Positions 10,377 to 29,283 of a DNA stretch of 42,640 nucleotides are shown here, in pieces; positions within the stretch are counted from its first letter, which is position 1; the number at the start of each line of letters is the position of its first letter. The notes beneath the pieces are model-generated. The model worked only from the letters and a program-made list of their open reading frames with translations. It was not told the origin of the DNA and ran no database searches. This stretch comes from an uncultured Thermus sp. (GTDB lineage: Bacteria > Deinococcota > Deinococci > Deinococcales > Thermaceae). Location of the stretch: NCBI GenBank assembly GCA_947085095.1, contig CAMTVD010000024.1:1-42640 (forward strand), in the 5' to 3' direction. Position numbers and translations under genes: made by a program.

Positions 10377-10446
10377 GCTAAGGGGAGGCTTTGCCCTCAC
10401 CCTTTCCCAGGGACGCCCTGGAGGGTCTCCTGATAGAATCCCCTTG

Positions 10447-11733
10447 ATGAAGGTCCTGGTGGTGGGGAGCGGGGGGCGGGAGCACGCCCTCCTTTGGAAG
10501 GCGGCCGAGAGCCCCCTCGTGGAAAAGCTGTACGCCGCCCCCGGCAACGCGGGCATGGCGGCCCTGGCCGAGCTGGTTCCTTGGAGTGGGGACGTGGAGG
10601 TCCTGGCGGACTGGGCCCTGGAGGCGGGGATAGACCTCACCCTGGTGGGCCCGGAGGCTCCCTTGGTGGAGGGCATCGCCGACGCCTTTCTGGAACGGGG
10701 CCTGAGGGTCTTTGGCCCCACCCAGAAGGCGGCCATGATCGAGGGCTCCAAGGCCTTCGCCAAGGGCCTCATGGAGCGTTACGGCATCCCCACGGCCCGG
10801 CACCGCACCTTCCAGGACCCCCTCCTGGCCCTGGAGTACCTGGAGGAGGTGGGGGTGCCCATCGTGGTCAAGGACTCGGGCCTGGCCGCGGGCAAGGGGG
10901 TTACCGTGGCCTTTGACCTCCACACCGCCAAGCAGGCGGTGGTCAACATTCTGAACCGGGCCGAAGGGGGGGAGGTGGTCATTGAGGAGTACCTGGAGGG
11001 GGAGGAGGTCACGGTCCTGGCCCTCACCGACGGGGAGGAGGTCCTTCCCCTCCTCCCCTCCCAGGACCACAAGCGCCTTTTGGACGGGGACCAGGGTCCC
11101 ATGACCGGGGGGATGGGGGCGGTGGCCCCCTACCCCATGGACCCCGAGACCCTAGGGCGGGTGGAGGAGGAGATCCTCTGGCCCCTCATCCGTGGCCTTA
11201 AGGCCGAGGGGGTGGTCTACCGGGGGGTGGTCTACGCGGGCCTGATGCTGACCCAGGAAGGCCCCAAGGTCCTGGAGTTCAACGCCCGCTTTGGCGACCC
11301 CGAGGCCCAGGCGATCCTGCCCCTTTTGCAAAGCGACCTGGTGGACCTGGCCCTGAAGGTGGCCGAGGGCAGGCTTAAGGGCACCCGGCTTGCCTGGAAG
11401 GCGGGGGCTTCCGCCTGCGTGGTCCTGGCCGCCCCCGGCTACCCGGAAAGCCCCAGGAAGGGGATTCCCCTTTACGTGCCCGAGCCCCCGGAGGGGGTCT
11501 TGGTCTTCCACGCGGGCACCCGGAGGGAGGGAGGGCATCTCGTGAGCGCCGGGGGGCGGGTCCTCAACGTGGTGGGCCTGGGGAAAGACCTGGGGGATGC
11601 CCTGGAGCGGGCCTACGCCTTCCTTCCCCAAATCGCTTTCCCCGGGGCGGTGTACCGCAAGGACATCGGCCGGAAGGCCCTGGCCCACCTCAGTACTGGA
11701 GCCGGGCCAGGGGAAGCCTCTCGCAGGCCCTGA
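10447..11733 (+). CDS. purD: Phosphoribosylamine--glycine ligase
   Basis: GSGGREHA, EGSKAFAK, GLAAGKG, QDHKR, EFNARFGDPE; TAGAAT -10 at 10434-10439. Confidence 0.96.
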   Translation: MKVLVVGSGGREHALLWKAAESPLVEKLYAAPGNAGMAALAELVPWSGDVEVLADWALEAGIDLTLVGPEAPLVEGIADAFLERGLRVFGPTQKAAMIEGSKAFAKGLMERYGIPTARHRTFQDPLLALEYLEEVGVPIVVKDSGLAAGKGVTVAFDLHTAKQAVVNILNRAEGGEVVIEEYLEGEEVTVLALTDGEEVLPLLPSQDHKRLLDGDQGPMTGGMGAVAPYPMDPETLGRVEEEILWPLIRGLKAEGVVYRGVVYAGLMLTQEGPKVLEFNARFGDPEAQAILPLLQSDLVDLALKVAEGRLKGTRLAWKAGASACVVLAAPGYPESPRKGIPLYVPEPPEGVLVFHAGTRREGGHLVSAGGRVLNVVGLGKDLGDALERAYAFLPQIAFPGAVYRKDIGRKALAHLSTGAGPGEASRRP

Positions 11734-13579
11734 GCACCTCCCCCAGGGTGCGGAACCCCCGGCCCTTGAGCAGGGGGATCATGCGGGCATAGACCTCGGC
11801 GGTCATGAGGGCGTCCCCCAAGGCGGTGTGCCGCCCCAGGACCGGGACCCCGAAGCGCTCCGCCAGGCGTTCCAGGGCGTGGTCCTTCAGGTCGGGGAAA
11901 AGGAGGTGGGCGAGGAGGAGGGTGTCCACCAGGGGGGGCTGGTGGATTCCCGCCCTTTTCAAAAAGGCCATGTCAAAGGCCCCGTCGTGGGCCAGGAGCA
12001 CCGTGTCCTGTAAAAAGGCCCGAAAAGAGGGGAGGACCTCCTCCAGGCGGGGCTTTCCCTTGAGCATCTCCCAGGTGAGGCCGTGGACCTCGGTGGAGGC
12101 CTTGGGGATGGGGCGGCCCGGGTCCACCAGGGCCTCGTAGACCTCTTGCCGGAGGACCTGGCTTCCCAGGAGGTGCACCCCCCCCAGGGCGATGATGGCA
12201 TCCTTTTCCGGGTCCAGCCCGGTGGTCTCCAGGTCAAAGGCGGTGTAGAGGAGGCCGTCTATGGGAGCCTCTTCCAGCTCCTCGGGGACCTGGAGCAGGG
12301 AGAGGTCAAAGACCTCGGCCCGGGGCGGGGGGCCTGAGGGGGCGGGAATCCTGGGGGCCTCCTGGGCGGGGAGGAGGAGGTGGAGGCGGCTCTCCTCCCG
12401 CCAGAGGCCTCCCCCGGCCCTTTCCACCGCCTCCAGGAGGCTGGGGTGGGCCTCGGGGGCGGGGTGGGGGAAGAGGAGGCTTAAGCGGAGGAGGCGGTCT
12501 TGGGCCTCCGCCTGGAGGAGGACTTCCTCGGCATCCTGAAGGGTGGCGGCGAGGCCCTGGCTTAGGGCGTAGGTGTCCGCCCGCACCAAAAGCCCCCGGG
12601 CCGTCTCGCCCAGGGTGAAGCCAGGGTGGACCCCCAGCTCCCGCTCCAGGGCCTCCGCCAGGAGGGGCAGGAGGTCTTCCGCCAGGACCTCGGCGGCCCT
12701 AGGGGGAGCCTCCAGGGCCCTGACCAGCTTTGCCAGGTCCTCCGCGGCCTCCTTGGCCGCCCGGGCCAGGGGCAGGGCCTCCTTGGGGGCCTCCTTTTCC
12801 CAAAGCTCCACCAGGGCCTTGAGGCCAGAGAGCTTGTCCTTGAGGCGGTGGAGGGTGGCCTCGTCCACCCCCTTTTCCTCCCGGGCGGCCTCGAGGATGA
12901 GGAGAAGGCCCCCTTCCCCCTTCAGGGGCACCGCCTGCAGGGAAAGGAGCTCCCCTCTTCCCTGGGTCAGGAAGCGCTCCGAGGGCAGCCTCAGGGCGTG
13001 GGCCAGAAGCCCCCGGTCCAGGAGGCCGAAGAGGCTCTTGCCCGCCCCCAGGCCTTCCCCCAGGAGGCGCCGGGCCGGGGGGTTGTAGAGGACCACCTGG
13101 CCCTTGGGGTTGGCCAGGACCACCCCCTGGGGCAGGTGGGCGATGAGGGCGGAGAGCACCCCCCTTTCTCGCTCCAGGAGGGCCTTGGCCTCCTCCACCT
13201 TGGCCTCCACCTCCTTCTCCAGGGCCGCCTTCTCCTCGGCCAGGCGCTGGACCAGGCGGCCTAGGGCCTGGAGCTCCAGGGGCCCTCTAAGGGGCAGGCG
13301 GTGGCCCGGGTTGGCCAGGAGGACCTCCGCCTCCTGGCCCAGGGCCCGGGTGGCCGCCAGGTAGCCCAGAAAGAGAGGGTGGAGCAGGGCCCCCAGCACC
13401 AGGACAAAGAGGAAGCCCACGAAGAGGAGAAGACCGGACTTCTCCCGGGCCACCCGGAAGAACTCCTGGGCCAGGGCCGCCTCCCCTTGCAGGAGGAGGA
13501 AGAGGGCGAACCCCACCACTCCCCCCACCAGGAGGAGGCCCAGGAGAAGGGCCCCCAGGAAGCGCAAGACCTCCCTCAT
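11690..13579 (-). CDS. Membrane-anchored PAS-domain DEDDh 3'-5' exonuclease (DnaQ-like)
   Basis: Two N-terminal TM helices, HAMP-like linker, PAS (GVVLANPKGQVVLYN), C-terminal FDLETTG, AHDGAFD and HTALGDA. Confidence 0.88.
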   Translation of the reverse strand: MREVLRFLGALLLGLLLVGGVVGFALFLLLQGEAALAQEFFRVAREKSGLLLFVGFLFVLVLGALLHPLFLGYLAATRALGQEAEVLLANPGHRLPLRGPLELQALGRLVQRLAEEKAALEKEVEAKVEEAKALLERERGVLSALIAHLPQGVVLANPKGQVVLYNPPARRLLGEGLGAGKSLFGLLDRGLLAHALRLPSERFLTQGRGELLSLQAVPLKGEGGLLLILEAAREEKGVDEATLHRLKDKLSGLKALVELWEKEAPKEALPLARAAKEAAEDLAKLVRALEAPPRAAEVLAEDLLPLLAEALERELGVHPGFTLGETARGLLVRADTYALSQGLAATLQDAEEVLLQAEAQDRLLRLSLLFPHPAPEAHPSLLEAVERAGGGLWREESRLHLLLPAQEAPRIPAPSGPPPRAEVFDLSLLQVPEELEEAPIDGLLYTAFDLETTGLDPEKDAIIALGGVHLLGSQVLRQEVYEALVDPGRPIPKASTEVHGLTWEMLKGKPRLEEVLPSFRAFLQDTVLLAHDGAFDMAFLKRAGIHQPPLVDTLLLAHLLFPDLKDHALERLAERFGVPVLGRHTALGDALMTAEVYARMIPLLKGRGFRTLGEVLRACERLPLARLQY

Positions 13580-13935
13580 TTCCCCTCCAGCAGCCTTTCC
13601 ACCTGGGCCAAGAGGTCCCCTATGCCAAAGGGCTTGGCCATGAAGGCCGCCGCTCCCAGAGCCAGGGCCTTGGCCTGGTCCGCCTCCCGGCCTCGGGCGG
13701 TGAGGACCAGGACCTTGGGCTTGGTGGGCCCTGGGGGGAGGCGCTCTAGGACCGCGAAGCCGTCCATTCCCGGGAGCATCAGGTCCAGGACCACCAGGTC
13801 AAAGGGGCTCTGGGCCAGGAAGCCTAGGGCTTCCTCGCCCGTCTTGGCCAGGGCCACCTCGTGCCCCGCCTTCCTGAGCAGGAACTCCAGGGGCACCAGG
13901 ATGCTTTCCTCGTCATCCACCACCAGGATCCGCAC
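13576..13935 (-). CDS. Single-domain response regulator (receiver only)
   Basis: ILVVDDE, LDLMLPGMDG, LTA, KPF; GTG start at 13935 with GGAGG SD; 119 aa with no output domain. Confidence 0.9.
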   Translation of the reverse strand: MRILVVDDEESILVPLEFLLRKAGHEVALAKTGEEALGFLAQSPFDLVVLDLMLPGMDGFAVLERLPPGPTKPKVLVLTARGREADQAKALALGAAAFMAKPFGIGDLLAQVERLLEGK

Positions 13936-16399
13936 GGTCCACCTCCAGGGGTAGGGTAAAGGCGAAGCTGGCTCCCTCGCCCGCTTCCAAAAAGATCCGT
14001 CCTCCCAGGCTCTCCACCAGCCTACGGGCCAGGTACAGGCCCAGGCCCGTGCCCCCGGCAAAGCTCTGGAAGGGTTCAAAGACCAAGGGCCTCAGGGCCT
14101 CGGGCACCCCGGGGCCATCGTCCTGGACCCGGAAGAGGGCCTCCTTCCCCTCGCGCCTAAGCTCCAGGTAGACCCGGCTTTGGGCGTGACGCAGGGCGTT
14201 GTGCAGGAGGTTGAGGAGGACTTGGAGCACCCGGTCCCGGTCGGTGAGGGTTTGGACCTCCTCCAGGTGGACTTCCATTCTAACCCCTTTTTCCAAGGCC
14301 AGGGGCTTGGCCAGGGCCAGGGCCTCCTCGGCCAAGGTCTTTAGGCTTGTGGGTTCCAGGCGCAGGGGGAGGTCTGCCTGCAGACGGGCGTAGGCCAGGA
14401 CCTCCTCCACCAAGCGGGAAAGCCTGGCGGCCTCCTTGGCCAATAGGCCGGTGAAGCGCCGCCTTTCCTCCTCGGGGAGGTCGGGGTGGGCCTCGAGGAT
14501 CTCCGCCAGGGCCCGCACCGAGGTGAGGGGGGTCTTGAGCTCGTGGGAGACCGCGGCCAGAAGCTCGTCCTTGGCCTGGTCCTGGGCCTTTAGGCGCTCG
14601 TAGGCCTCGGCGAGCTCCCGCCTCGCCTCCTCCAGGGCCCTGGCGTAGGCCCTGACCTCCCTGGACTCCCGGGCCGCCTCCTCCACAAGGGCCTCCGAGG
14701 GGGCCCTCTCCGTGACGGAGAGGAGGAGGAGCCTAGCGGTGGCGGGGCCCACGGAACCCGCCAAAAGGGCCTCGGCCCGGGCGGCCGCCTGGGGGCCGGG
14801 AAGGCCTTGGGCCTCCCTGTGGAAGCCCTCCTCCGCTTCCGGCCCCAGGACCCTTCCGATGAGGGCGGAGAGCGCCGCCACCTCCCCCGTGCGCCCCTCT
14901 TTGGGGGCTTCCCTCCGCGTGTAGAGGGAGACGCCCAGGGTGAGGGCCAGGTTGACGAAGAGGCTTGCCAGGAAGCCGTGGGTGACCGGGTCCAGGCCCT
15001 CTAGCCCGAGAAGGCCCTCTGGGCGGAGCCAGGGGTGGGGACCCTCGAGGAAGACCCCGGGAAGCCAGCCCGAGCGGGCCAGGGCGGGGAGGAAGAGGGT
15101 GTAGGCCCAAAGGAGCATCCCCCCCAGAAGCCCCGCCAGGGCCCCTTGCCAGGTCGCCCCCTTCCAGTAAAGCCCCAGAAGGGCGGCCGGGGCCAGCTGG
15201 GCCACGGCCACGAAGGAGATGAGCCCCATCCCCACCAGGGCGTAGGCCTCCCCGGCCAGGCGGAAGTAGAGGTAGGCGAGGAGCATCACCAGGAGGATGG
15301 AAAGCCTCCGCCAGAGGAGGAGGCTCCCCAGGGCCTTGGCCCTGAGGAGGAGGGGGGAAAGGAGGTGGTTGGAGACCAGGATGGAGAGGGCCAGGCTCTC
15401 CACGATCACCATGGCCGTGGCGGCAGAGACCCCGCCCAGAAAGGCCAGGAGGGCCAGGCCGGGGCCCGCCTCTTGGGCGAGGGCCAGGACGTAGAGGTCG
15501 GGGTTTTCTTGGGGGAAGTGGAGGCGGCCCAGGAGGGCCAGGGGAACCACGGGCAGGTTGATGAGGAGGAGGTAGAGGGGAAAGGCCCAGGCGGCCAGGG
15601 CCAGGTGCCTGGGGTTCACGTTCTCCACCACGCTCACGTGGAACTGCCGGGGCAGGAAGAGAAAGGCCAGGCCCGACAGCACCGTGAGGCTCACCCAGGC
15701 CAGGTAGCCGGAAGCCCCTTCCGGGGGCAGGAGGAGGGGCAGGAACTCGGGCCTCTCCATGGCCTTGGGGAAGGGGTTGCCCAGGGCCAGGAGGGCCGCC
15801 CCGCCCACCAGGAGGAGGGCGAGGAGCTTGACCACAGACTCAAAGGCCACCGCCAAGACCAGGCCCTCGTGCCTTTCCGAGGGGTCCAGGCGGCGGGTGC
15901 CGAAGAGGATGGCGAAAAGGGCGAGGAGGAGGGTGGTGGGCAGGGCCACGTCCGCTAAAGGGGCCTCTTCCCCGCTCAAGAAGAGGAAGGCCTGGGCGAT
16001 GGCCTTGAGCTGCAGGGCCAGGTAGGGGAGGAGGCCCACCACCAGGAAGAGGGCGGTGAGGAAGCCCAAGGGGGCGTGGCCGTAGCGCAGAAACAGGTAG
16101 TCCGCCCAGGAGGTGAGGCGGTGGACCCGGGCCAGCTCCAAGAGCTTCCCATGGAGGAAGGGCCAGAGGAGGAGGACCAGGGTGGGCCCCAGGTAGACGG
16201 GAAGGAAGGTGGCCCCCTGGGTGGCCGCCCGGCCCACGCTGCCAAAGAAGGTCCAGGCGGTGGCGTAGACCGCCAGGGAGAGGGCGTAGACCCAGGGGCT
16301 TTGCGCCCAGGCCCGCCCCCGCCCCTCCCCGAAGAGGGCCACCAGGAAGAGGAGGCCCAGGTAGAGGAAGAGGCCGAGGAGAAGGAAGAGGGGGCTCAT
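13913..16399 (-). CDS. Sodium:solute symporter (SLC5)-STAC-histidine kinase fusion, CrbS/CbrA-like
   Basis: Multi-TM SSS domain (YALSLAVYATAWTFFGSVG, FESVVKL, PRQFHV), STAC-like helices, SHELKTPL, N box, DDGPG, GTGLGL. Confidence 0.9.
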   Translation of the reverse strand: MSPLFLLLGLFLYLGLLFLVALFGEGRGRAWAQSPWVYALSLAVYATAWTFFGSVGRAATQGATFLPVYLGPTLVLLLWPFLHGKLLELARVHRLTSWADYLFLRYGHAPLGFLTALFLVVGLLPYLALQLKAIAQAFLFLSGEEAPLADVALPTTLLLALFAILFGTRRLDPSERHEGLVLAVAFESVVKLLALLLVGGAALLALGNPFPKAMERPEFLPLLLPPEGASGYLAWVSLTVLSGLAFLFLPRQFHVSVVENVNPRHLALAAWAFPLYLLLINLPVVPLALLGRLHFPQENPDLYVLALAQEAGPGLALLAFLGGVSAATAMVIVESLALSILVSNHLLSPLLLRAKALGSLLLWRRLSILLVMLLAYLYFRLAGEAYALVGMGLISFVAVAQLAPAALLGLYWKGATWQGALAGLLGGMLLWAYTLFLPALARSGWLPGVFLEGPHPWLRPEGLLGLEGLDPVTHGFLASLFVNLALTLGVSLYTRREAPKEGRTGEVAALSALIGRVLGPEAEEGFHREAQGLPGPQAAARAEALLAGSVGPATARLLLLSVTERAPSEALVEEAARESREVRAYARALEEARRELAEAYERLKAQDQAKDELLAAVSHELKTPLTSVRALAEILEAHPDLPEEERRRFTGLLAKEAARLSRLVEEVLAYARLQADLPLRLEPTSLKTLAEEALALAKPLALEKGVRMEVHLEEVQTLTDRDRVLQVLLNLLHNALRHAQSRVYLELRREGKEALFRVQDDGPGVPEALRPLVFEPFQSFAGGTGLGLYLARRLVESLGGRIFLEAGEGASFAFTLPLEVDRADPGGG

Positions 16400-16572
16400 G
16401 GCTTGCGGAAGAGGAGGTAGGCCAAAAGGAGCACCAGGCCCCAGGCCCCGAAGAGGTAGAGGTAGACCGGGGGAAGCCCCAAGGGCCCCAAGGGGGAGAG
16501 GGGGAAGAGGGCCAGGGGCAGAAAAAAGAGGAAAAGGGCCAGGAGGAAGAGGGCGAAGGCTTTTTCCTTCAT
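16396..16572 (-). CDS. 58-aa two-helix membrane peptide coupled to the SLC5 kinase (not in the ORF track)
   Basis: MKEKAFALFLLALFLFFLPLALFPLSPLGPLGLPPVYLYLFGAWGLVLLLAYLLFRKP; ATGA overlaps at both ends. Confidence 0.8.
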   Translation of the reverse strand: MKEKAFALFLLALFLFFLPLALFPLSPLGPLGLPPVYLYLFGAWGLVLLLAYLLFRKP

Positions 16573-18317
16573 CGGAGTTGGAAGCGGGCTGCGGTGCTCT
16601 CCTGGATCTCCAGGATGGCCCGGAACCCCTCGAGGGCCAGCTGTCTTTCCCGGGGGGACAAGGCGCTCCAGAGAACCCTGTTGCCGATCTCCTTTCCCTG
16701 GCGGAAGGCGGCGAGCTGGTGGCCTAGGCGCAGGTGGAAGAAGAAGCGGTAGGCCTCGGCCAGGCGCTCCGCCCCTTCCTGGCTCAGGGTGCCCCCGGCT
16801 AGGGCGGCCATAAGGCGCTCCACCGTTCCCTTGGCCAGACTGCCCGCCATGAGGGCGTAAAGCCGGGCCAGGGCCACGATGGGAGCCAGGGCGGCCCGCT
16901 TCAGGTCCACGAACCCCTCCTCCGTGCGCACCCGGCCAAAAAGGCCCAAGGGGGGGCGGAAGGCCAGGGCGCTTTGCGCCAGGTGGTAGAGGAAGACCCC
17001 CTTGCGGCTCCTTTCCAGGATGGCCTCCTCCAAGGGCTTCAGGGAAAGCGTCCCGGCCACCCCCCGGAAGTCAAAGAAGATCTGGGTGTCCAGGAGGGCC
17101 TGGGGCTCGGGGGCGTCCATCCACTTCCTGAAGGTGGCCACCCAGTCCCTTAGGGGCATGCGCCAGCGAGTGGCCATATACCCCCCTTTGCACTCGGGGA
17201 TGCCCGCCCGGATCAGCCCCTGGACCACCCTTTCCCCCAGGGCCTGGAAATACTCCTCGTGCCCCCCTTCCGCCAGGACCAGGGCGTTGTCCTGGTCGGT
17301 GAGCAGGGCCTGCTCCCGCCGCCCCTCCGAGCCAAAGACCAGAAGGCTGTAGGGCACGGGAGGGTTTCCCAAGGCCGCCTCGGCCTCCCTCACCAGGCGG
17401 CGGAGGAGGGCGTCGTTCAGGGAGGCCACCACCCGCCCGATCTCCAGCCCCCCCAGGCCCCGGGCGAAGAGGGCCTCCACCAGGTGGGCCACCTCGAGGC
17501 CGTACCGCTCCAGCTCCAGCCGCTCTATCCGCCTTAGGAGGAGGAGGGGGCTTTGCGCCTGGTGCAGGACCAGATCCGTGTGGGTCACCACCCCCAGGAC
17601 CTTTTCCCCCTGGGTGAGGGGCAGGTGGTGGATGCCCCGCTCCACCATGGCCGCCACCGCCTCATAGATGGGGGTCTCCGCGGGGAGGGCGAAGAGGGGG
17701 GTGCTCATGACCCGGGCCACGGGGGTGGCGGGGGAAAGCCCCTCCGCCAGGACCCGGTTCCTCAGGTCCCGGTCGGTGAGGATGCCCAGGGGCTCCCCTT
17801 CCACCAGGAGGCTGGAGATCCCCTCCTCCCGCATCCTCCGGGCGGCCTCCTCCACCGTAGCCGTGGGAGGGATGAAGGCCGGGGGGCGCCTTATGAGCCT
17901 CCCCACCGGGGCGAAAAGGGAGAGGTCCGGGGCTTCCCTTAGCCGCACCCGGCTTGCCAGGCCTTGCCCAAAAAAGCGGGCGGCCTCGGGAAAGGCCAGG
18001 AGCTTCTGGAAACCTTCTTTAGGAAAGACCAGGATACGGACCGGGGTCCTGGCCACCACGGAGAAAGCAGGGGGCTCTCCGGAAAGAAGGGAGGGAAAGC
18101 CAAAAAACTCCCCGGGTCCCAGGCTCCCCACCTCCTCCTCCCCGTCCCGTAGGGCCACCTCCCCCTCCAGCACCAGGTAGAGGCTTTCCGCCGGCTCCCC
18201 CCCTTGCTCCAGGATATGGGCCCCTTGGGGATGGGCCTCCTCCTGGGCCTGACGGAGGAGGGCTTCCCGCTCCGCTTCAGGAAGGGCGTTCAGGGGCGGA
18301 ATGATTCTGGGGTCCAT
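16569..18317 (-). CDS. cNMP-binding + CBS pair + DUF294 nucleotidyltransferase
   Basis: cNMP (LGPGEFFG), CBS (GILTDRDLR, IHHLP), Pol-beta-like FGSEGRREQALLTDQDN, IFFDFR, DLKR. Confidence 0.9.
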   Translation of the reverse strand: MDPRIIPPLNALPEAEREALLRQAQEEAHPQGAHILEQGGEPAESLYLVLEGEVALRDGEEEVGSLGPGEFFGFPSLLSGEPPAFSVVARTPVRILVFPKEGFQKLLAFPEAARFFGQGLASRVRLREAPDLSLFAPVGRLIRRPPAFIPPTATVEEAARRMREEGISSLLVEGEPLGILTDRDLRNRVLAEGLSPATPVARVMSTPLFALPAETPIYEAVAAMVERGIHHLPLTQGEKVLGVVTHTDLVLHQAQSPLLLLRRIERLELERYGLEVAHLVEALFARGLGGLEIGRVVASLNDALLRRLVREAEAALGNPPVPYSLLVFGSEGRREQALLTDQDNALVLAEGGHEEYFQALGERVVQGLIRAGIPECKGGYMATRWRMPLRDWVATFRKWMDAPEPQALLDTQIFFDFRGVAGTLSLKPLEEAILERSRKGVFLYHLAQSALAFRPPLGLFGRVRTEEGFVDLKRAALAPIVALARLYALMAGSLAKGTVERLMAALAGGTLSQEGAERLAEAYRFFFHLRLGHQLAAFRQGKEIGNRVLWSALSPRERQLALEGFRAILEIQESTAARFQLR

Positions 18318-18636
18318 GGCTGGGGGTAAGCCAGGCGATCAGGGGGACGATGTAGTGCAGGGCCACCTGGGCCTGAAACAGGACCACGAGGCCCACCCCC
18401 AAGACGAAGGCCGGGGGCAGGAGCACAAAGAGCCGCACCACGCGCCCCCATCCAGGTGGGGGTAAGGGCCAGATGCGGTGGTAGAGGAGGCCAAGCCAAA
18501 GGCCCAGGGCCGCTCCCAAGGCGATCTGGAAGAGAATCCCGGGGGTGGGGAAGGGGAAGCCCAGGAGGTAGTGGCCCAGGAGGTAAAAGGCGAAGAGGGC
18601 GCTAAGGCTTCCCAGGTAAAACCGCAAAAGCTTCAT
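18277..18636 (-). CDS. Hypothetical membrane protein
   Basis: 119 aa, 3-4 hydrophobic segments, GGAGG SD, overlaps the downstream gene. Confidence 0.75.
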   Translation of the reverse strand: MKLLRFYLGSLSALFAFYLLGHYLLGFPFPTPGILFQIALGAALGLWLGLLYHRIWPLPPPGWGRVVRLFVLLPPAFVLGVGLVVLFQAQVALHYIVPLIAWLTPSHGPQNHSAPERPS

Positions 18637-18658
18637 GTCGCCTCCAGCTTGAGTATAG

Positions 18659-18686
18659 GCCCCCTGGGCCCCTGGGCCCAGGGGGC
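18659..18686. terminator. GC-rich hairpin downstream of actP
   Basis: GCCCCCTGGGCC-CCTG-GGCCCAGGGGGC 12-bp stem; no U tract. Confidence 0.5.
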
Positions 18687-18698
18687 AGGCGGAATGAC

Positions 18699-20369
18699 CT
18701 AGTGCTCGCTTGCGGCTCCGCTTCCCTTGGGCACGCGGATCTCGTCCACCAGCTTCTGGATTTCCGGGGGCGGGGGCGGGGTGGCCCGGGAGACCAGGTA
18801 GGCCACGATGACGTTGAGGAGCATGCCGATGGTGCCGATCCCCTCCGCCGTGATGCCAAAGACGAAGTTGGGCCAGCCCAGGTACTTGGTGCCCACGATG
18901 TAGCTGGCGGTGAAGACCAGGCCCACGATCATTCCCGCCACCGCTCCCTGCATGTTCATCCTCCGGTCAAAGATGCCCAGGAGGATGGCGGGGAAGAAGG
19001 TGCTGGCGGCAAGCCCGAAGGCGAAGGCCACCAGCTGGGCGATGAAGGCCGGGGGGTTGATGCCGAAGGGGGCGGCCAGGATCACCACCAGGGCGATGAT
19101 CACCCGGGCGATGGTGAGCTTGGTGGCCTCCGAGGCTCTGGGATTGATCATCCGGGTATAGAGGTCGTGGGAGATGGCGCTGGCCATCACGATGAGGAGG
19201 CCCGCGGCCGTGGAGAGGGCGGCGGCCAGACCTCCTGCCGCCACCAGGCCCACGATGAAGGGGGCCAGTTTGGCCACCTCGGGGGTGGAGAGGACGATGA
19301 TGTCCCGGTCAATGGTGACCTCGTTGACCTCCTTCTTGCCGCTCATCTGCAGGATGCCGTCCCCGTTCTTGTCGTCAAACTTGAGGAGGCCCGTCTTCTC
19401 CCACTTGGCCACCCAGTCGATCTGGCGCACCTCCTCCAGGGGCTTGTTGGCCAGGGTGTTGAGGAGGTTGTACTTGGAGAAGACGGCCACGGCGGGGGCG
19501 GTGGTGTAGAGAAGGCCGATGAAGAGGAGGGCCCAGCCGGCGCTCCAGCGGGCGTCCGAGGCCCTGGGCACGGTGTAGAAGCGGATGATCACGTGGGGCA
19601 GGCCGGCGGTGCCCACCATGAGGGTGAGGGTGATGAGGAAGACGTTGAGGGCGGAGAGGTTCTGGAAGGGGGCCACGTATTCCGTGAAGCCCAGCTCCAC
19701 CTGAAGCTGGCTCAGGCGCACGGCGAAGTCGCTGAAGGTGAAGGAAAGGGGCGGAAGAGGGTTGCCCGTGAGGAGGTTGGAGAGGGCGATGCCCATGATC
19801 AGGTAGGCGGAGATGAGCACGGTGTACTGGGCCACCTGGGTCCAGGTGATCCCCTTCATGCCGCCGATCACCGCGATGAAGGCGGTGACCAAGACGGCCG
19901 CCCAGACCCCCGTGGCCACGTCCACCCCCAGGTAGCGGGAGAGGACGATGCCCACGCCCCTGAGCTGGGGAACCATGTAGACGAAGGAGACGAAAAGGGC
20001 GCTGATAATGGCCACCACCCGGGCGATGTTGGAGTAGTAGCGGTCCCCCACGAACTCGGGCACCGTGTACTTGCCGTACTTGCGCAGGTAGGGGGCGAGG
20101 AGGAGGGCTAAAAGGACGTACCCGCCGGTCCAGCCCATGAGGTAGACGGCCCCATCGTAGCCCAGGAAGGAGATGAGGCCCGCCATGGAGATGAAGCTGG
20201 CCCCCGACATCCAGTCGGCGGCGGTGGCGGCCCCGTTGGCCACTGGGGGCACGCCCCGGCCCGCCACGTAGAAGCCCGCCGTCTCCCGCACCCGGGCCCA
20301 GTAGCCGATGCCCAAGTAAAGGGCGAAGCTAAGAATCACAATGGTCCAAGTCCAGGCTTCAACGCTCAC
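18699..20369 (-). CDS. actP: Cation/acetate (monocarboxylate) symporter, SSS family
   Basis: FYVAGR, AADWMSGASF, GGMKGITWTQ, GTAGLPHV, AAALSTAAGL; acs neighbourhood. Confidence 0.88.
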   Translation of the reverse strand: MSVEAWTWTIVILSFALYLGIGYWARVRETAGFYVAGRGVPPVANGAATAADWMSGASFISMAGLISFLGYDGAVYLMGWTGGYVLLALLLAPYLRKYGKYTVPEFVGDRYYSNIARVVAIISALFVSFVYMVPQLRGVGIVLSRYLGVDVATGVWAAVLVTAFIAVIGGMKGITWTQVAQYTVLISAYLIMGIALSNLLTGNPLPPLSFTFSDFAVRLSQLQVELGFTEYVAPFQNLSALNVFLITLTLMVGTAGLPHVIIRFYTVPRASDARWSAGWALLFIGLLYTTAPAVAVFSKYNLLNTLANKPLEEVRQIDWVAKWEKTGLLKFDDKNGDGILQMSGKKEVNEVTIDRDIIVLSTPEVAKLAPFIVGLVAAGGLAAALSTAAGLLIVMASAISHDLYTRMINPRASEATKLTIARVIIALVVILAAPFGINPPAFIAQLVAFAFGLAASTFFPAILLGIFDRRMNMQGAVAGMIVGLVFTASYIVGTKYLGWPNFVFGITAEGIGTIGMLLNVIVAYLVSRATPPPPPEIQKLVDEIRVPKGSGAASEH

Positions 20370-20380
20370 GGTCTACCCCC

Positions 20381-20638
20381 TTAGTCCTCAAACCCGTAGG
20401 CCCGGTCCAAGGCTTGCATCTTGGCAGCGTAGACGAAGATCAGGATGATGAAGACCCAGATGGCCCCCTGTTGGGCGATCCAGAAGCCCAAAGGCGGCCC
20501 GCCGAAAATCCGGATGCTGTTGAGGGCTGGGGCCAGCAGGATGCCGAGCCCGTAGGCCACCACCGCCCAGACCACGAGCAGGTTCCGGATCAGGGCCAGG
20601 TTCTTCTGCCAGTACTCCGCCAGCTTTGCTCCGTCCAT
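20381..20638 (-). CDS. Small symporter-associated membrane subunit (DUF4212-like)
   Basis: YWQKNLALI...GPPLGFWIAQQG; ATG 20638 with GGAGGGAG SD. Confidence 0.85.
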   Translation of the reverse strand: MDGAKLAEYWQKNLALIRNLLVVWAVVAYGLGILLAPALNSIRIFGGPPLGFWIAQQGAIWVFIILIFVYAAKMQALDRAYGFED

Positions 20639-20714
20639 AAGCTCCCTCCCTCGCCAAACCGGAAAGGCCGTTAGGATGCGTGGGTTTGGCCTTGCTCCCG
20701 GTTTGGTGGCGGTC

Positions 20715-20743
20715 ATCTTAGAGGTCCGTGAGGAGGGTGTCAA
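20715..20743 (-). promoter_or_regulatory. sigmaA promoter of the actP operon
   Basis: TTGACA-17 nt-TAAGAT on the minus strand. Confidence 0.85.
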
Positions 20744-20829
20744 GAAACGGGGGTTTTTTCGCTATGCGCTAAAGGGGCGGTTTCCCTTAGGAGAAGCAGG
20801 ACCCCATCGGGGCTTCCCGGCGGAGTGGG

Positions 20830-22710
20830 CTACTCCTCGAGGGTGGACAGGTCCCCCGGGTCCTTCCCCAGCTCCTGGGCCTTGAGGAGCCGCCTCAAGA
20901 TTTTGCCGGAGCGGGTCTTGGGGAGTTTGTCCAGGAAGACCACTTCCCCCGGGGTGGCGATGGCCCCAAGCTCCCGGCGCACGTGCTGGACGATGCTTTC
21001 CTTGAGTTCCTCGGAAGGAGTGTGGCCCAGGCGCAGGACCACGAAGGCCTTGATGGCCTCCCCCTTGACGGGGTCGGGCACCCCGATCACCGCCGCCTCG
21101 GCCACCGCGGGATGGGAGACCAGGGCGCTTTCCACGTCGGCGGTGCCGATGCGGTGCCCGGCCACGTTTAAGACGTCATCCGCCCGCCCCAGGACGCTGA
21201 AGTACCCCTCCTCGTCCTGGCTGGCCACGTCCCCGGCCACGTAGACCCCAGGGACCTCCCGCCAGTACTGGAGGTAGCGGTCGTGGTTCCCCCAGACGGT
21301 GCGCATCATGTGGGGGAAGGGGCGCTTGAGGACGAGGAGCCCCCCCTGCCCTGGGGGCACGGGCCTCCCCCCCTCGTCCACCACCCCCGCCTCCACCCCG
21401 GGGAGGGGTACCCCCGTATACCCGGGCTTGGCGGGGAGGGTGAGGGGGGTGCCTAGGGTGGGGCCTCCCAGCTCCGTCTGCCACCAGTTGTCGGCCACGA
21501 AGCCCCGCCTGCCCCCCTCCGCCAGGTGCTCGTAGGCCCAGCGCAGGGCCTCGGGGTTCAGGGGCTCCCCGGCCACGGCGATGAGGCGCAAGGAGGAGAG
21601 GTCGTGCTTCTTGGGCCACTCGGGGCCGAACTTCATGAACATGCGCACCGCCGTGGGGGCGGTGAACATCACGTCCACCCGGTAGCGCTCCACCACCTGC
21701 CAGAAGGCCCCGGGGTCGGGGTGGTCGGGGGCCCCTTCCCGGAGGAGGCTGGTGATCCCTTCCAGGAGGGGGGCGTAGACCATGTAGGAATGCCCCACGA
21801 TCCAGCCGATGTCGCTGGTGGCGAAGAAGAGGTCGTCGTCCTTCACGTCAAAAAAGGTGCGCAGGTGGTAGGTGGTGCCCACCATGTACCCCCCGTGCAC
21901 GTGGACCACCCCCTTGGGCTTGCCGGTGGAGCCCAAGGTGTAGAGGATGAAGAGGGGGTGCTCCGCCTCCACCATCTCCGCCCGGGCCTCGGGGGGGTGG
22001 CTAAAGAGGAGCTCTTCAAAATCGTGGTGCCCCGGGGGAAGCTCCGCCTTGCCCAGGCGCTGGAACCAGACCACCTTGAGGGGGAGGTCCCGGATGGCCT
22101 CCTCGGCGATGGAGCGGAGGTCCACCACCCTGCCCCGCCTAAAGCCCACGTCCCCGGCGATGAGGAGTTTGGCCCCGGCGTCCAGGATGCGCTCCCTTAA
22201 GGCTCCCACCCCGAGGCCCGCGTAGACCACGCTGTGGATGGCTCCCAGGTAGGCGGTGGCCAGCATGGCCAGGATGCCCTCGAGGGTGAGGGGCATGTAG
22301 ATGACCACCCGGTCGCCCTTGCCCACCCCCAGGGCCCTAAGCCCCGTGGCCAGGCGGCGCACCCGGTCCAGGAGTTCCCCGTAGGTGAGCTTGGCCTCCT
22401 TCCCCTCCTCGGATAAGTAGAGGAGGGCCACCTTGTTCCTCAGGCCCCGCTCCACGTTCCGCTCCAGGGCGTTGTAGACGGCGTTGGTGGTGCCCCCAAG
22501 GAACCACCGGTGCTCGGGGAGGTCCCACTCCAGGACCTTTTCAAAGGGCTTCTCCCAGTGGAAGCGCTTGGCCCACGCTCCCCAGAAGCCCTCGGGGTCT
22601 TTGAGGCTCCTCTCGTACTCTGCCTGGAAATCCTGCAGGTTGGCCTGCTTCCTAAGGGGTTCCGGTGCCCAGAGCTTTTCCTCAACCTTGAGAATCTTTT
22701 CCACCGCCAT
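20830..22710 (-). CDS. acs: Acetyl/propionyl-CoA synthetase paralogue
   Basis: YT(L)[27 protein letters not shown]. Confidence 0.9.
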   Translation of the reverse strand: MAVEKILKVEEKLWAPEPLRKQANLQDFQAEYERSLKDPEGFWGAWAKRFHWEKPFEKVLEWDLPEHRWFLGGTTNAVYNALERNVERGLRNKVALLYLSEEGKEAKLTYGELLDRVRRLATGLRALGVGKGDRVVIYMPLTLEGILAMLATAYLGAIHSVVYAGLGVGALRERILDAGAKLLIAGDVGFRRGRVVDLRSIAEEAIRDLPLKVVWFQRLGKAELPPGHHDFEELLFSHPPEARAEMVEAEHPLFILYTLGSTGKPKGVVHVHGGYMVGTTYHLRTFFDVKDDDLFFATSDIGWIVGHSYMVYAPLLEGITSLLREGAPDHPDPGAFWQVVERYRVDVMFTAPTAVRMFMKFGPEWPKKHDLSSLRLIAVAGEPLNPEALRWAYEHLAEGGRRGFVADNWWQTELGGPTLGTPLTLPAKPGYTGVPLPGVEAGVVDEGGRPVPPGQGGLLVLKRPFPHMMRTVWGNHDRYLQYWREVPGVYVAGDVASQDEEGYFSVLGRADDVLNVAGHRIGTADVESALVSHPAVAEAAVIGVPDPVKGEAIKAFVVLRLGHTPSEELKESIVQHVRRELGAIATPGEVVFLDKLPKTRSGKILRRLLKAQELGKDPGDLSTLEE

Positions 22711-27738: not shown

Positions 27739-27742
<4 letters not shown>
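27347..27742 (-). CDS. NTF2/SnoaL-like fold protein
   Basis: [20 protein letters not shown] pattern; GTGA overlap with the mutase stop. Confidence 0.75.

Positions 27743-29283
<1,541 letters not shown>

What the first reader, a model, noticed from the sequence alone, without database searches (positions are those of the whole stretch)
11690..20743. Candidate nucleotidylation 'writer/eraser' signalling circuit coupled to an acetate transporter
Seen: one co-oriented run of DUF4212-like subunit, actP, a membrane protein, a cNMP-CBS-DUF294 nucleotidyltransferase (intact GS..DxD motif), a 58-aa peptide, an SLC5-STAC histidine kinase, a lone receiver and a membrane-bound DEDDh nuclease. Every junction from 18636 downstream overlaps (ATGA at 16569-72, 16396-99 and 13576-79). 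Known: DUF294 belongs to the Pol-beta/GlnD-GlnE-like nucleotidyltransferases, CBS pairs bind adenylates, and CrbS-type kinases regulate acetate use. Inference: the transferase adds NMP to a target (ActP, its small subunit or Acs) or makes a nucleotide signal according to energy charge. The DEDDh enzyme, controlled by the kinase-receiver pair, would remove it. That would be post-translational control of carboxylate uptake rather than DNA repair. I know of no demonstrated mechanism.
Basis: partly seen in the sequence, partly recalled or inferred. Interest (0 to 1): 0.8.

Follow-up and report, generated by a model that had tools for sequence, protein, structure and literature searches.

The report
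Carboxylate-uptake operon with nucleotidyltransferase-exonuclease switch
A Thermus operon joins a two-part organic-acid importer to a sensor enzyme shaped like protein-AMP-adding enzymes and to a proofreading-type nuclease fused to a dead sensor kinase; the enzyme pair is widespread and known from Pseudomonas, but its chemistry is still unsolved.

Summary
One minus-strand operon (promoter-like site 20743-20715) encodes a DUF4212 small subunit, a VC_2705-family Na+/solute symporter (not ActP proper), a 4-TM protein, a cNMP-like/CBS/DUF294 nucleotidyltransferase, a 58-aa 2-TM protein, an SLC5-type histidine kinase, a lone receiver and a membrane DEDDh exonuclease, with overlapping junctions. New here: the exonuclease carries a HAMP-PAS-pseudo-histidine-kinase module. 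The NTase core model matches, at E<=0.001, only DrrA and GlnE, which are protein AMPylases. A DEDDh gene accompanies DUF294 in 37 of 40 full-context loci from many phyla. The long pseudo-kinase form comes with the SLC5 kinase and lone receiver in 16 of 17 loci. The pair is already known as PP_0354/PP_0353, a MxtR/ErdR target in Pseudomonas, and protein nucleotidylation has been speculated in print. This scan has reported the module nine times on other DNA. The writer/eraser reading is plausible and fits part of the published genetics, but nothing demonstrates it (about 0.35). The Thermus/Chloroflexi layout is a new variant of a known, biochemically unsolved cassette.

The parts
20715..20743 (-). 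Promoter-like site TTGACA-17 nt-TAAGAT ahead of the operon
   Evidence: 10 of 12 matches; 2 sites found in 11000-21200 against a mean of 0.4 in shuffles. Sequence read. A consensus match only.
20381..20638 (-). DUF4212 / TIGR03647 small subunit of the symporter (85 aa from ATG 20638; the longest ORF reaches 20743)
   Evidence: 110.8 and 108.5 bits. RBS GGGAGGGAG read. N-terminal Y9 in 40 of 41, W10 in 41 of 41 and N13 in 40 of 41 homologues.
18699..20369 (-). Na+/solute symporter large subunit, VC_2705 family (556 aa)
   Evidence: TIGR03648, 783.6 bits (cut-off 320.75); ActP models far below their cut-offs. SSF.
18277..18636 (-). 119-aa membrane protein of no known family (likely 4 TM segments, my reading of the sequence)
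   Evidence: No Pfam or NCBIfam hit. Found between symporter and DUF294 in 13 of 79 loci, Thermaceae and some Chloroflexota. The Atlas gives only Deinococcota hypothetical clusters. RBS GGAGG.
16569..18317 (-). Sensor nucleotidyltransferase: cNMP-binding-like, CBS pair, DUF294 NTase, DUF294_C (582 aa)
   Evidence: GS...DxD and D416 invariant. Core model pLDDT 94.9. Foldseek hits at E<=0.001: DrrA and GlnE only.
16396..16572 (-). 58-aa two-TM protein just upstream of the SLC5-type kinase
   Evidence: ATGA overlaps on both sides. Homologues in Thermus loci (57-76 bits). A positionally conserved 63-95-aa 2-TM ORF with the shared P..LY.Y.F..W motif in 14 of 15 Chloroflexota loci. No Pfam family.
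13913..16399 (-). SLC5-type sensor histidine kinase (828 aa), with no PAS hit and no receiver domain
   Evidence: SSF, HisKA, HATPase_c; 38% identity over residues 1-583 to a CrbS-like hybrid kinase (E 1e-101). H-box, N and G boxes read in the translation.
13576..13935 (-). Receiver-only response regulator (119 aa, GTG start)
   Evidence: Response_reg, 90.6 bits, no output domain. Start and RBS. The acidic pocket, D49, T77 and K99 were read in the sequence.
11690..13579 (-). Membrane-anchored TM-TM-HAMP-like, PAS, DHp-like, CA-like pseudo-kinase fused to a PolC/DnaQ-type DEDDh exonuclease (629 aa)
   Evidence: profile positions 48-468 match VicK-like kinase 4i5s (E 5.9e-22), ThkA 3a0r and DivL 4q20; the exo part matches PolC exo 2p1j (3.9e-56). 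Model. Foldseek: WalK, VicK, PolC exo (rmsd 1.7-1.8 A), epsilon.
20830..22710 (-). Acetyl-CoA synthetase (context, directly upstream)
   Evidence: PRK00174 acetate--CoA ligase, 735 bits (cut-off 657)..
22682..25219 (-). IclR-type regulator fused to an Acs-like enzyme (context)
   Evidence: HTH_IclR, IclR_C, ACAS_N, AMP-binding and AMP-binding_C in one 845-aa ORF. Similar long ORFs in L003, L005, L018 and L065.

Best explanation
This is the Thermus form of a widespread regulatory cassette for Na+-coupled monocarboxylate uptake.

Shown:
- One operon encodes a two-subunit symporter, a GlnE/DrrA-like sensor nucleotidyltransferase (DUF294) and a catalytically intact PolC/DnaQ-type DEDDh phosphodiesterase.
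- In Thermus and Chloroflexota the phosphodiesterase is fused to a membrane HAMP-PAS-pseudo-kinase. It travels with an SLC5-type kinase, that kinase's own mini membrane subunit, and a receiver that has no output domain.

Inferred mechanism:
- The transferase, gated by ligands of its CBS pair and its atypical cNMP-like domain, adds an NMP to a hydroxyl of a protein of the uptake/activation system. The symporter complex is the most likely target, an Acs paralogue the alternative. The mark mostly inhibits.
- The DEDDh domain hydrolyses that phosphodiester and releases 5'-NMP. This would parallel the HD domain of GlnD.
- The SLC5 kinase senses substrate and phosphorylates the lone receiver. The receiver docks on the dead DHp module, as DivK does on DivL, and switches the hydrolase.
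- The two-component system would therefore end on an enzyme, not on DNA.
For: NTase:
- Of the Foldseek matches of the NTase core model, only 4 reach E<=0.001: DrrA 6yx5_B (TMq 0.73), GlnE adenylylation domain 3k7d_A and 3k7d_B (0.66, 0.63) and GlnE N-terminal domain 1v4a (0.50). Aminoglycoside NTases follow at TM about 0.3.
- Catalytic GS/DxD residues are invariant.

Partner hydrolase:
- DEDDh residues are kept in 58-59 of 59 partner domains.
- A DEDDh gene is present in 37 of 40 loci that have at least 7 kb on both sides, and in 62 of 79 loci overall.
- The hydrolase fold can be exchanged. One natural protein joins PHP, sCache, PAS, CBS and DUF294 (P0242). An Exo_endo_phos gene lies next to DUF294 in L037 and L064, which lack DEDDh.

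Link to the symporter:
- An SSS symporter lies within 10 kb in 32 of 40 full-context loci.
- Among 61 Deinococcota genomes, 21 have both DUF294_C and DUF4212, 6 and 4 have one only, and 30 have neither. In 20 of the 21 the two lie within about 4 kb.

Control module:
- The long form co-occurs with the SLC5 kinase plus lone receiver in 16 of 17 loci.
- A stand-alone 229-aa pseudo-kinase sits between receiver and DUF294 in L058 (hhalign probability 98%, E 2.3e-13).
- The N-terminal part is kinase-like, and DivL is among the hits.

Literature:
- In P. putida the exonuclease mutant is impaired on pyruvate as the actP-I mutant is (PMC9927547 section 8). The 2026 preprint reports the same for the yjcH mutant. 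The NTase mutant is not impaired (both sources).
- In Price et al. a neighbour called 'RNAse T domain protein' is cofit with DUF4212 (10.1101/072470, passage).
Against: - No target protein is identified.
- No DEDDh enzyme is known as a de-nucleotidylylase (recall).
- The exo domain is 31-39% identical to PolC proofreading domains, which act on DNA.
- On propionate both P. putida mutants grow worse, while transporter mutants do not (2026 preprint, section 3.5 passage). That does not fit one inhibitory mark on the transporter.
- Three full-context loci lack any nearby DEDDh gene (L026, L041, L066).
- Deinococcus genomes carry DUF4212 without DUF294 (3 genomes) and DUF294_C without DUF4212 (3 genomes).
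- The H-box position holds His in this protein but F/R/E in relatives, so phosphotransfer instead of docking is not excluded.
- The canonical cNMP phosphate-binding Arg is missing in 13 of 15 homologues, so the sensed ligand is unknown (the motif itself is recalled).
Confidence: 0.35

Rival explanations
1. Post-transcriptional control. The transferase adds nucleotides to the 3' end of an RNA (the symporter or acs mRNA, a small RNA or a tRNA). The DEDDh exonuclease trims that 3' end. Together they set transporter expression.
For: - The DEDDh domain is closest to nucleic-acid 3'-5' exonucleases: PolC exo, epsilon, RNase T, TREX.
- Henriquez et al. speculate on mRNA degradation (PMC9927547, section 8).
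- A PHP domain, a fold used for polymerase proofreading (recall), replaces DEDDh in P0242.
Against: - The NTase model does not match CCA-adding enzymes, poly(A) polymerases or TUTases at a significant level; TUTase appears at E 0.3, TM 0.2.
- GlnE-type cores with a KNTase_C-like helical domain are protein modifiers wherever they have been characterised (PMC3710099 Table 1 passage, and recall).
- A membrane-anchored nuclease is odd for RNA processing.
Confidence: 0.2
2. Second-messenger pair. The transferase makes a linear or cyclic (oligo)nucleotide signal in response to energy state. The exonuclease, or PHP/EEP in other lineages, degrades it. An unknown receptor tunes uptake.
For: - Synthase/phosphodiesterase pairs are the usual logic of nucleotide signalling (recall).
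- The partner hydrolase fold is interchangeable.
- DEDDh enzymes of the Orn type degrade short oligonucleotides (recall).
- The oligodeoxyadenylate synthase HalB appears among weak fold hits (E 0.08).
Against: - HalB and NF90-type hits are not significant (TM 0.2-0.3), and no cGAS/CD-NTase hit was listed.
- No candidate receptor gene is conserved in the cassette.
- DUF294_C corresponds to the substrate-binding helical domain of the GlnE/GlnD class (PMC3710099, passage).
Confidence: 0.15
3. The nuclease is the target or effector rather than the eraser. The transferase nucleotidylylates and thereby regulates the exonuclease, which has its own job, for example DNA/RNA turnover or repair under carbon shift. 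Alternatively the two are merely co-regulated.
For: The DUF294-DEDDh link is tighter than the link of either gene to the symporter: 37 of 40 against 32 of 40 full-context loci. It persists where no symporter is nearby (8 of 40).
Against: - Replacement of DEDDh by unrelated hydrolase folds is hard to explain if one specific nuclease is the regulated effector.
- In 5 of 5 genomes whose pair lies away from a symporter, a DUF4212 or DUF485 small-subunit gene exists elsewhere.
- P. putida tests found no role of the nuclease in using DNA (PMC9927547, section 7).
Confidence: 0.1

Closest known systems
PP_0354 / PP_0353 of Pseudomonas putida KT2440 (Pflu5625 in P. fluorescens; the PAO1 homologues lie next to actP-yjcH)
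   Same: - Same cNMP-CBS-CBS-DUF294 protein with an RNase_T-type exonuclease in one operon.
- Same tie to the acs/actP carboxylate regulon controlled by an SLC5-type kinase.
- Biochemistry unknown; protein nucleotidylation speculated (PMC9927547 sections 7-8; PMC5715377 passage; 10.64898/2026.09.07.749794 passages).
   Different: - Here the nuclease is 629 aa with a membrane anchor, HAMP-PAS and a dead kinase module, and is separated from the transferase by three genes.
- The kinase lacks PAS and receiver domains.
- The adjacent regulator is receiver-only, with no DNA-binding CrbR/ErdR-type domain.
- The symporter is the DUF4212/VC_2705 type, not YjcH/ActP.
GlnD (uridylyltransferase/UMP-removing enzyme), GlnE (adenylyltransferase) and DrrA/SidM
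   Same: - Pol-beta NTase core plus helical substrate-binding domain; the only significant fold matches.
- Sensor domains gate the enzyme.
- GlnD pairs its NTase with a metal-dependent phosphohydrolase (HD) that removes the mark (recall).
   Different: - No sequence-level match to any solved NTase.
- The hydrolase is a separate DEDDh protein, not an HD domain or a second NT domain.
- Target unknown, and no PII or glutamine synthetase context.
CrbS/CrbR (MxtR/ErdR) and CbrA/CbrB SLC5/STAC two-component systems
   Same: SLC5-like sensor kinase, 38% identical over 583 residues to a CrbS-like protein, placed with acs and carboxylate symporter genes.
   Different: - No PAS, no C-terminal receiver, no DNA-binding partner.
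- The output appears to be a lone receiver plus a pseudo-kinase-nuclease.
DivK-DivL, and the Spo0F-Spo0B / ChpT phosphorelay modules
   Same: - Kinase, then single-domain receiver, then a DHp+CA-like protein without kinase activity.
- DivL is among the sequence hits of the module (E 7e-11). The biology of these systems is recalled.
   Different: The module is fused to an exonuclease and a membrane sensor. The acceptor His is not conserved in the family. No cell-cycle context.

Membership tests
COG2905-type DUF294 NTase + RNase_T exonuclease cassette (PP_0354/PP_0353 type) | cNMP_binding + CBS pair + DUF294 + DUF294_C architecture | tested here: met
   all four Pfam families above their cut-offs.
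COG2905-type DUF294 NTase + RNase_T exonuclease cassette (PP_0354/PP_0353 type) | DEDDh exonuclease gene in the same operon | tested here: met
   same strand, overlapping junctions, but three genes apart. The same order is seen in 16 other loci.
COG2905-type DUF294 NTase + RNase_T exonuclease cassette (PP_0354/PP_0353 type) | Linkage to an SSS carboxylate symporter with a small subunit, and to acs | tested here: met
   for the window. 32 of 40 (any SSS) and 23 of 40 (ACS) full-context loci.
GlnE/GlnD/DrrA-type protein nucleotidylyltransferases | Pol-beta motif G[SG]...DxD plus a third acidic residue | tested here: met
   G329, S330, D341, D343 and D416 are invariant in A2 and A3.
GlnE/GlnD/DrrA-type protein nucleotidylyltransferases | Fold of NTase core plus helical domain like GlnE/DrrA | tested here: met
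   DrrA TMq 0.73, GlnE 0.66, E 1e-7 to 1e-5. No sequence-level hit.
GlnE/GlnD/DrrA-type protein nucleotidylyltransferases | Transfer of NMP to a protein hydroxyl | not testable with these tools
   Needs biochemistry.
DEDDh (DnaQ/PolC-exo/RNase T) exonucleases | Exo I, II and III motifs with His | tested here: met
DEDDh (DnaQ/PolC-exo/RNase T) exonucleases | Fold | tested here: met
   PolC exo rmsd 1.7-1.8 A over 186 columns; epsilon TMt 0.82.
DEDDh (DnaQ/PolC-exo/RNase T) exonucleases | 3'-5' exonuclease activity on nucleic acid | not testable with these tools
   Needs an assay.
Sensor histidine kinases (N-terminal 430 residues of the nuclease) | HAMP/PAS/DHp/CA domain order and fold | tested here: met
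   (4i5s, E 5.9e-22 over positions 48-468).
Sensor histidine kinases (N-terminal 430 residues of the nuclease) | Conserved phospho-acceptor His and ATP-binding N/G boxes | tested here: not met
   - No HisKA or HATPase_c Pfam hit.
- The H-box column holds H, F, R or E among homologues.
- I saw no N or G box on reading the alignment.
- Hence a pseudo-kinase.
SLC5/STAC histidine kinases (CrbS, CbrA) | N-terminal SLC5 transporter-like domain | tested here: met
   SSF 26.9 bits; 38% identity over 1-583 to a CrbS-like kinase.
SLC5/STAC histidine kinases (CrbS, CbrA) | STAC domain between SLC5 and the kinase core | tested here: inconclusive
   No STAC model hit in the Pfam scans of either kinase. The alignment to the CrbS-like protein runs through the linker, including LLAG..G...ARL.
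SLC5/STAC histidine kinases (CrbS, CbrA) | PAS domain, a hybrid receiver (CrbS), and a DNA-binding partner regulator | tested here: not met
   no PAS and no Response_reg in the kinase; the adjacent regulator is receiver-only.
ActP cation/acetate symporter | Score above the ActP equivalog cut-off | tested here: not met
   TIGR02711 at 156 bits against 1099. Instead TIGR03648 (VC_2705 family) at 783.6 against 320.75.

The most novel reading that the evidence does not exclude
A proofreading-type DEDDh exonuclease fold has been recruited as a protein de-nucleotidylylase. Together with a GlnE/DrrA-like sensor transferase it would run a reversible NMP mark on a Na+/carboxylate symporter or its activating enzyme. 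In Thermus and Chloroflexota this eraser would be switched directly by a two-component system, through a phospho-receiver docking on a dead kinase module. That would be a signalling pathway ending on an enzyme instead of a promoter.
Probability: 0.25. Interest if true: 0.85.

Novelty: new variant of a known kind. Interest (0 to 1): 0.5.

Why it matters
- The DUF294 transferase family is large: 6565 cluster representatives at E<=0.001. It sits in the acetate/pyruvate/propionate regulon of well-studied bacteria, yet it has no known activity.
- If the writer/eraser reading holds, it would add a new reversible protein modification to the control of nutrient uptake. It would give DEDDh nucleases a non-nucleic-acid role. 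It would also show a two-component system with an enzymatic output.
- The Thermus proteins should be thermostable and suited to biochemistry and structure work.
- A single double-mutant experiment in P. putida KT2440 would already discriminate between the models.

Tried and rejected
- Complex prediction of the full transferase (A2) with the exonuclease domain (A1 residues 425-629): score 0.00, no verdict. It counts neither for nor against binding.
- Sequence search of the NTase core against solved structures: no meaningful hit. The full-length profile found only cNMP and CBS domains.
- Pfam on the 58-aa protein and six Chloroflexota counterparts at E<=1: nothing credible.
- Atlas search of the 119-aa protein: only Deinococcota hypothetical clusters.
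- Search for longer fused forms: 2 proteins. One (P0241, Epimerase + DUF294) may be a gene-call fusion and was not used.
- Looked for a metallophosphoesterase partner, a lead from earlier scan notes, in the 8 loci that lack DEDDh. None was found; Exo_endo_phos was found in 2 of them.
- Rejected: generic DNA repair. The own genome has a separate RNase_T-family gene on another contig (not examined further), and the operon context is conserved.
- Rejected: canonical cAMP sensing, because the phosphate-binding Arg is absent in 13 of 15 homologues (motif recalled).
- The identity of Sama_1525/Psest_0349 (transferase or nuclease) could not be settled; only the preprint text names them.
- Supplements of the papers were not opened.

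Full report
ORGANISM AND LAYOUT
The window is 65-70% G+C. Its proteins are 80-97% identical to Thermus proteins; the closest named relative is T. sediminis at 87%.

The whole run from 20743 down to 11690 lies on the minus strand. A promoter-like site, TTGACA-17-TAAGAT (20743-20715, 10 of 12 matches), stands between acs and the first gene. Only 2 such sites were found in 11000-21200, against a mean of 0.4 in shuffles.

Downstream junctions are tight:
- a 41-nt overlap at 18277-18317;
- ATGA at 16572-16569 and at 16399-16396;
- a 23-nt overlap between the kinase and a GTG-started receiver;
- ATGA at 13579-13576.

The 3' end of the last gene overlaps the convergent purD ORF (10444-11733) by 44 nt.

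Upstream lie acs (20830-22710), an IclR-regulator/Acs-like fusion ORF (22682-25219), a third divergent acs paralogue (25348-27294) and methylmalonyl-CoA mutase. This is a short-chain-acid locus.

THE GENES
Pfam and NCBIfam confirm each item of the observation, with two corrections.

First, the transporter belongs to the VC_2705 family (TIGR03648, 783.6 bits). It is not ActP, which scores 156 bits against a cut-off of 1099.

Second, the 629-aa 'membrane-bound DEDDh nuclease' is more than a nuclease.
- A profile of 37 full-length homologues (A1) matches the VicK-like kinase 4i5s over positions 48-468 (E 5.9e-22). It also matches ThkA 3a0r (5e-18) and the pseudo-kinase DivL 4q20 (7e-11).
- Its C-terminal part matches the PolC exonuclease domain 2p1j (3.9e-56) and epsilon.
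- The AlphaFold model (pLDDT 83.6, pTM 0.41) shows two long N-terminal helices, a PAS fold, a helical hairpin (240-288), an alpha/beta domain (296-407) and the exonuclease (444-628).
- Foldseek returns WalK, VicK and LOV-kinase chimeras for the front. For the back it returns PolC exo (rmsd 1.7-1.8 A, 31-32% identity) and epsilon (TMt 0.82).
- No HisKA or HATPase_c model hits it. The H-box column holds H here but F, R or E in relatives. I could read no N or G boxes in the alignment. It is therefore a dead kinase.
- The nuclease residues are intact: D449, E451 and D536 invariant, H584 and D589 at least 90% conserved.

The true kinase (828 aa) is 38% identical over residues 1-583 to a CrbS-like hybrid kinase of a Pseudomonadales genome (E 1e-101). 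It lacks that protein's PAS_7 and receiver domains. A STAC model was not available, so that label stays untested.

THE TRANSFERASE
In 15 homologues G329-S330, D341-x-D343 and D416 are invariant. The NTase part alone has no relative among solved structures by sequence.

I aligned 46 NTase-only segments (A3) and folded the window's segment (pLDDT 94.9, pTM 0.92). In Foldseek against the PDB only 4 matches reach E<=0.001:
- DrrA in complex with Rab8a (6yx5_B, E 1.4e-7, TMq 0.73);
- the GlnE adenylylation domain (3k7d_A and 3k7d_B, TMq 0.66 and 0.63);
- the GlnE N-terminal domain (1v4a, TMq 0.50).

Aminoglycoside nucleotidyltransferases follow at TM about 0.3. TUTase, HalB and NF90 are not significant. 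As far as fold can tell, the enzyme belongs with the protein-AMPylating/uridylylating class. This agrees with the published placement of DUF294_C beside the GlnD/GlnE helical domains (PMC3710099, passages).

The 'cNMP' domain lacks the canonical phosphate-binding Arg in 13 of 15 sequences (the motif is recalled). The sensed ligand is therefore open.

The family is large: 6565 representatives at E<=0.001 and 2499 at E<=1e-30. In the 150 best listed, the NTase lies at or near the C-terminus of proteins of about 600 or about 490 residues in most.

NEIGHBOURHOOD SURVEY
A scan of species-representative genomes with A2 found 587 relatives. The best 80 gave 79 loci from Deinococcota, Chloroflexota, Acidobacteriota, Myxococcota, Krumholzibacteriota, Gemmatimonadota, Eisenbacteria, Binatia and others. 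This sample is biased to the closest 41-80% identical relatives. I searched their ORFs with the window's proteins and with an exonuclease HMM.

DEDDh gene:
- Present in 62 of 79 loci.
- Among the 40 loci with at least 7 kb on both sides, 37 have one and 3 do not (L026; L066; and L041, where IS transposases follow DUF294).
- Of the 39 shorter loci, 25 have one. Of the 14 without, most end within about 2 kb of DUF294 on at least one side.

The partner comes in three forms:
- about 200 aa, directly downstream (22 of the 37);
- about 465-490 aa, with a PAS domain and divergently upstream (3 of the 37);
- the long pseudo-kinase form (12 of the 37).

Over all loci there are 17 long forms. This count includes L008, which is cut by its contig end and which my script mislabelled. 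Sixteen of them follow an SLC5-type kinase plus a lone receiver. One (L046) has the receiver but no kinase in the 1.2 kb available upstream.

Only two loci with a short nuclease have that kinase and receiver (L058, L067). In L058 a stand-alone 229-aa protein between receiver and DUF294 aligns to the DHp/CA-like columns of A1 (hhalign probability 98%, E 2.3e-13). L067 was not checked for it. The dead-kinase module thus travels with the kinase-receiver pair, whether or not it is fused to the nuclease.

DEDDh residues are kept in 58-59 of 59 partner domains.

Other linked genes:
- A DUF4212/VC_2705-type symporter lies within 10 kb in 28 of 40 full-context loci, any SSS in 32 of 40, and an Acs in 23 of 40.
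- In 5 genomes whose pair lies away from a symporter, DUF4212 occurs elsewhere in 4 and DUF485 (YjcH) in 3, at least one of them in all 5.
- In 61 Deinococcota genomes, DUF294_C and DUF4212 occur together in 21 (within about 4 kb in 20 of these). DUF294_C occurs alone in 6, DUF4212 alone in 4, and neither in 30. Kin are not independent, and the split largely follows Thermaceae against Deinococcus.
- The window's genome holds just 2 RNase_T-family matches and 1 DUF294 match.

SMALL PROTEINS
The 58-aa ORF is real. Thermus loci keep it (57-76 bits). A 63-95-aa two-TM ORF with a shared P..LY.Y.F..W motif sits directly upstream of the SLC5-type kinase in 14 of 15 Chloroflexota loci (none in L029). 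None passed my filter in L058 or L067. It has no Pfam family. By position it looks like a mini-subunit of the transporter-like sensor, as DUF4212 is for the symporter; this is inference.

The 119-aa protein occurs in 13 of 79 loci, always between symporter and DUF294. It has no known relatives outside such clusters.

OTHER HYDROLASES BESIDE DUF294
The search for longer forms found two proteins. One (P0242, 1235 aa) joins a PHP phosphoesterase domain, sCache, PAS, CBS, DUF294 and DUF294_C in one chain.

In L037 and L064, which lack DEDDh, an Exo_endo_phos gene lies next to DUF294, in convergent orientation.

Earlier notes of this scan report a metallophosphoesterase in that place. I did not see one in my loci.

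An exchangeable metal-dependent phosphoesterase beside a constant transferase fits a make/remove pair. It does not fit a transferase that regulates one particular nuclease.

LITERATURE
- In P. putida KT2440, PP_0354 (CBS/NTase) and PP_0353 (RNase_T) form an operon. ErdR binds its promoter directly. In P. aeruginosa PAO1 the homologues lie next to actP-yjcH (PMC9927547, sections 7 and 8 read).
- Neither deletion affects growth on 20 mM acetate.
- On pyruvate the nuclease mutant is impaired, as the actP-I mutant is (PMC9927547 section 8). The 2026 preprint reports the same for the yjcH mutant. The transferase mutant is not impaired (both sources).
- On propionate both mutants are impaired, while the transporter mutants are not (preprint 10.64898/2026.09.07.749794, passages of sections 3.5 and 4).
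- The preprint and PMC5715377 (passage) both speculate on control by protein nucleotidylation.
- Price et al. found DUF4212 genes cofit with a nearby 'COG2905 (RNAse T domain protein)' (10.1101/072470, passage). Which of the two genes is meant is unclear.

Searches made: 'DUF294' (22 papers), 'COG2905' (4), CrbS/CrbR/actP/exonuclease (13), a five-term search (1) and the locus tags (1). They turned up no measured activity for either enzyme and no description of the pseudo-kinase-nuclease fusion. The library holds open-access papers and bioRxiv only, and I opened no supplements.

This scan itself has reported the module nine times on other DNA, twice with the same pseudo-kinase and receiver arrangement.

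MECHANISM
Shown:
- the architecture;
- intact catalytic motifs;
- a GlnE/DrrA-like fold;
- conserved linkage of transferase, hydrolase and symporter;
- co-inheritance of kinase, receiver and dead-kinase module.

Inferred: the transferase marks a protein of the uptake/activation system with NMP. The DEDDh domain hydrolyses the protein-O-P bond to give 5'-NMP, the same leaving-group chemistry as removal of a 3'-terminal nucleotide, and functionally like GlnD's HD domain. The phosphorylated receiver docks on the dead DHp, as DivK does on DivL, to switch the hydrolase.

The pyruvate genetics fit an inhibitory writer and a relieving eraser. The propionate genetics do not fit a single target.

I give this reading 0.35. 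The rivals are RNA 3'-end tailing and trimming at 0.2, a nucleotide messenger pair at 0.15, and the nuclease as target or as an independent effector at 0.1. The rest is unassigned.

VERDICT
The thing is a new variant, found in Thermus and Chloroflexota and wired to a receiver and a dead kinase, of a known but biochemically unsolved cassette. Interest is moderate: the family-wide question is open and cheaply testable, but the pair is already in the literature and has been noted repeatedly in this scan.

Noticed in passing
window 22682-25219 (-): One 845-aa ORF fuses an IclR-type regulator (HTH_IclR, IclR_C) to an Acs-like enzyme (ACAS_N, AMP-binding, AMP-binding_C). Similar 844-887-aa ORFs stand at the same place in L003, L005, L018 and L065. 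This is a regulator-enzyme fusion conserved in Thermaceae.
   Followed up: partly
window 20830-22710 (-), 22682-25219 (-), 25348-27294 (+), 27739-29283 (-): Three acetyl-CoA-synthetase paralogues and a methylmalonyl-CoA mutase cluster upstream. The locus may therefore serve propionate as well as acetate.
   Followed up: no
L008-L017, L031, L032, L043, L072, L075 (coordinates): A 63-95-aa two-TM ORF with the motif P..LY.Y.F..W lies directly upstream of the SLC5-type kinase in 14 of 15 Chloroflexota loci. It is the counterpart of the window's 58-aa ORF and has no Pfam family.
   Followed up: partly
P0242 (1235 aa): A natural single-chain fusion of PHP phosphoesterase, sCache_2, PAS, CBS, DUF294 and DUF294_C.
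   Followed up: partly
L037:1763-2551 (-) and L064:1519-2421 (-): Exo_endo_phos family genes lie beside DUF294 genes that have no DEDDh neighbour. L037 also has an S1/P1 nuclease next door.
   Followed up: no
L058:9271-9960 (+): A stand-alone 229-aa pseudo-kinase (DHp/CA-like, no Pfam hit) sits between the lone receiver and DUF294 in an Acidobacteriota locus that has the short nuclease.
   Followed up: yes
L009:16855-18009, L012:17818-19005, L075:7940-9079: A receiver fused to a ParA/MinD-like ATPase follows the long nuclease gene in three Chloroflexota loci (L009 is labelled Caldilinea). A LuxR-type (CrbR-like) regulator lies upstream on the other strand in L009.
   Followed up: no
window 16569-18317 (-), residues about 69-88: The cNMP-binding-like domain reads FFG[FY]PSLLSG..P.F.V. 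In 13 of 15 homologues it lacks the Arg of the canonical phosphate-binding cassette, so it may bind something other than cAMP or cGMP.
   Followed up: partly
window 11690-11733: The nuclease gene and the convergent purD ORF overlap by 44 nt at their 3' ends. No terminator-like site was listed in that overlap.
   Followed up: no
G014, G019, G036, G038, G058: Five non-Thermus Thermaceae genomes (genera g2 and g4) carry two DUF294_C genes. Only one of each pair lies next to DUF4212.
   Followed up: no
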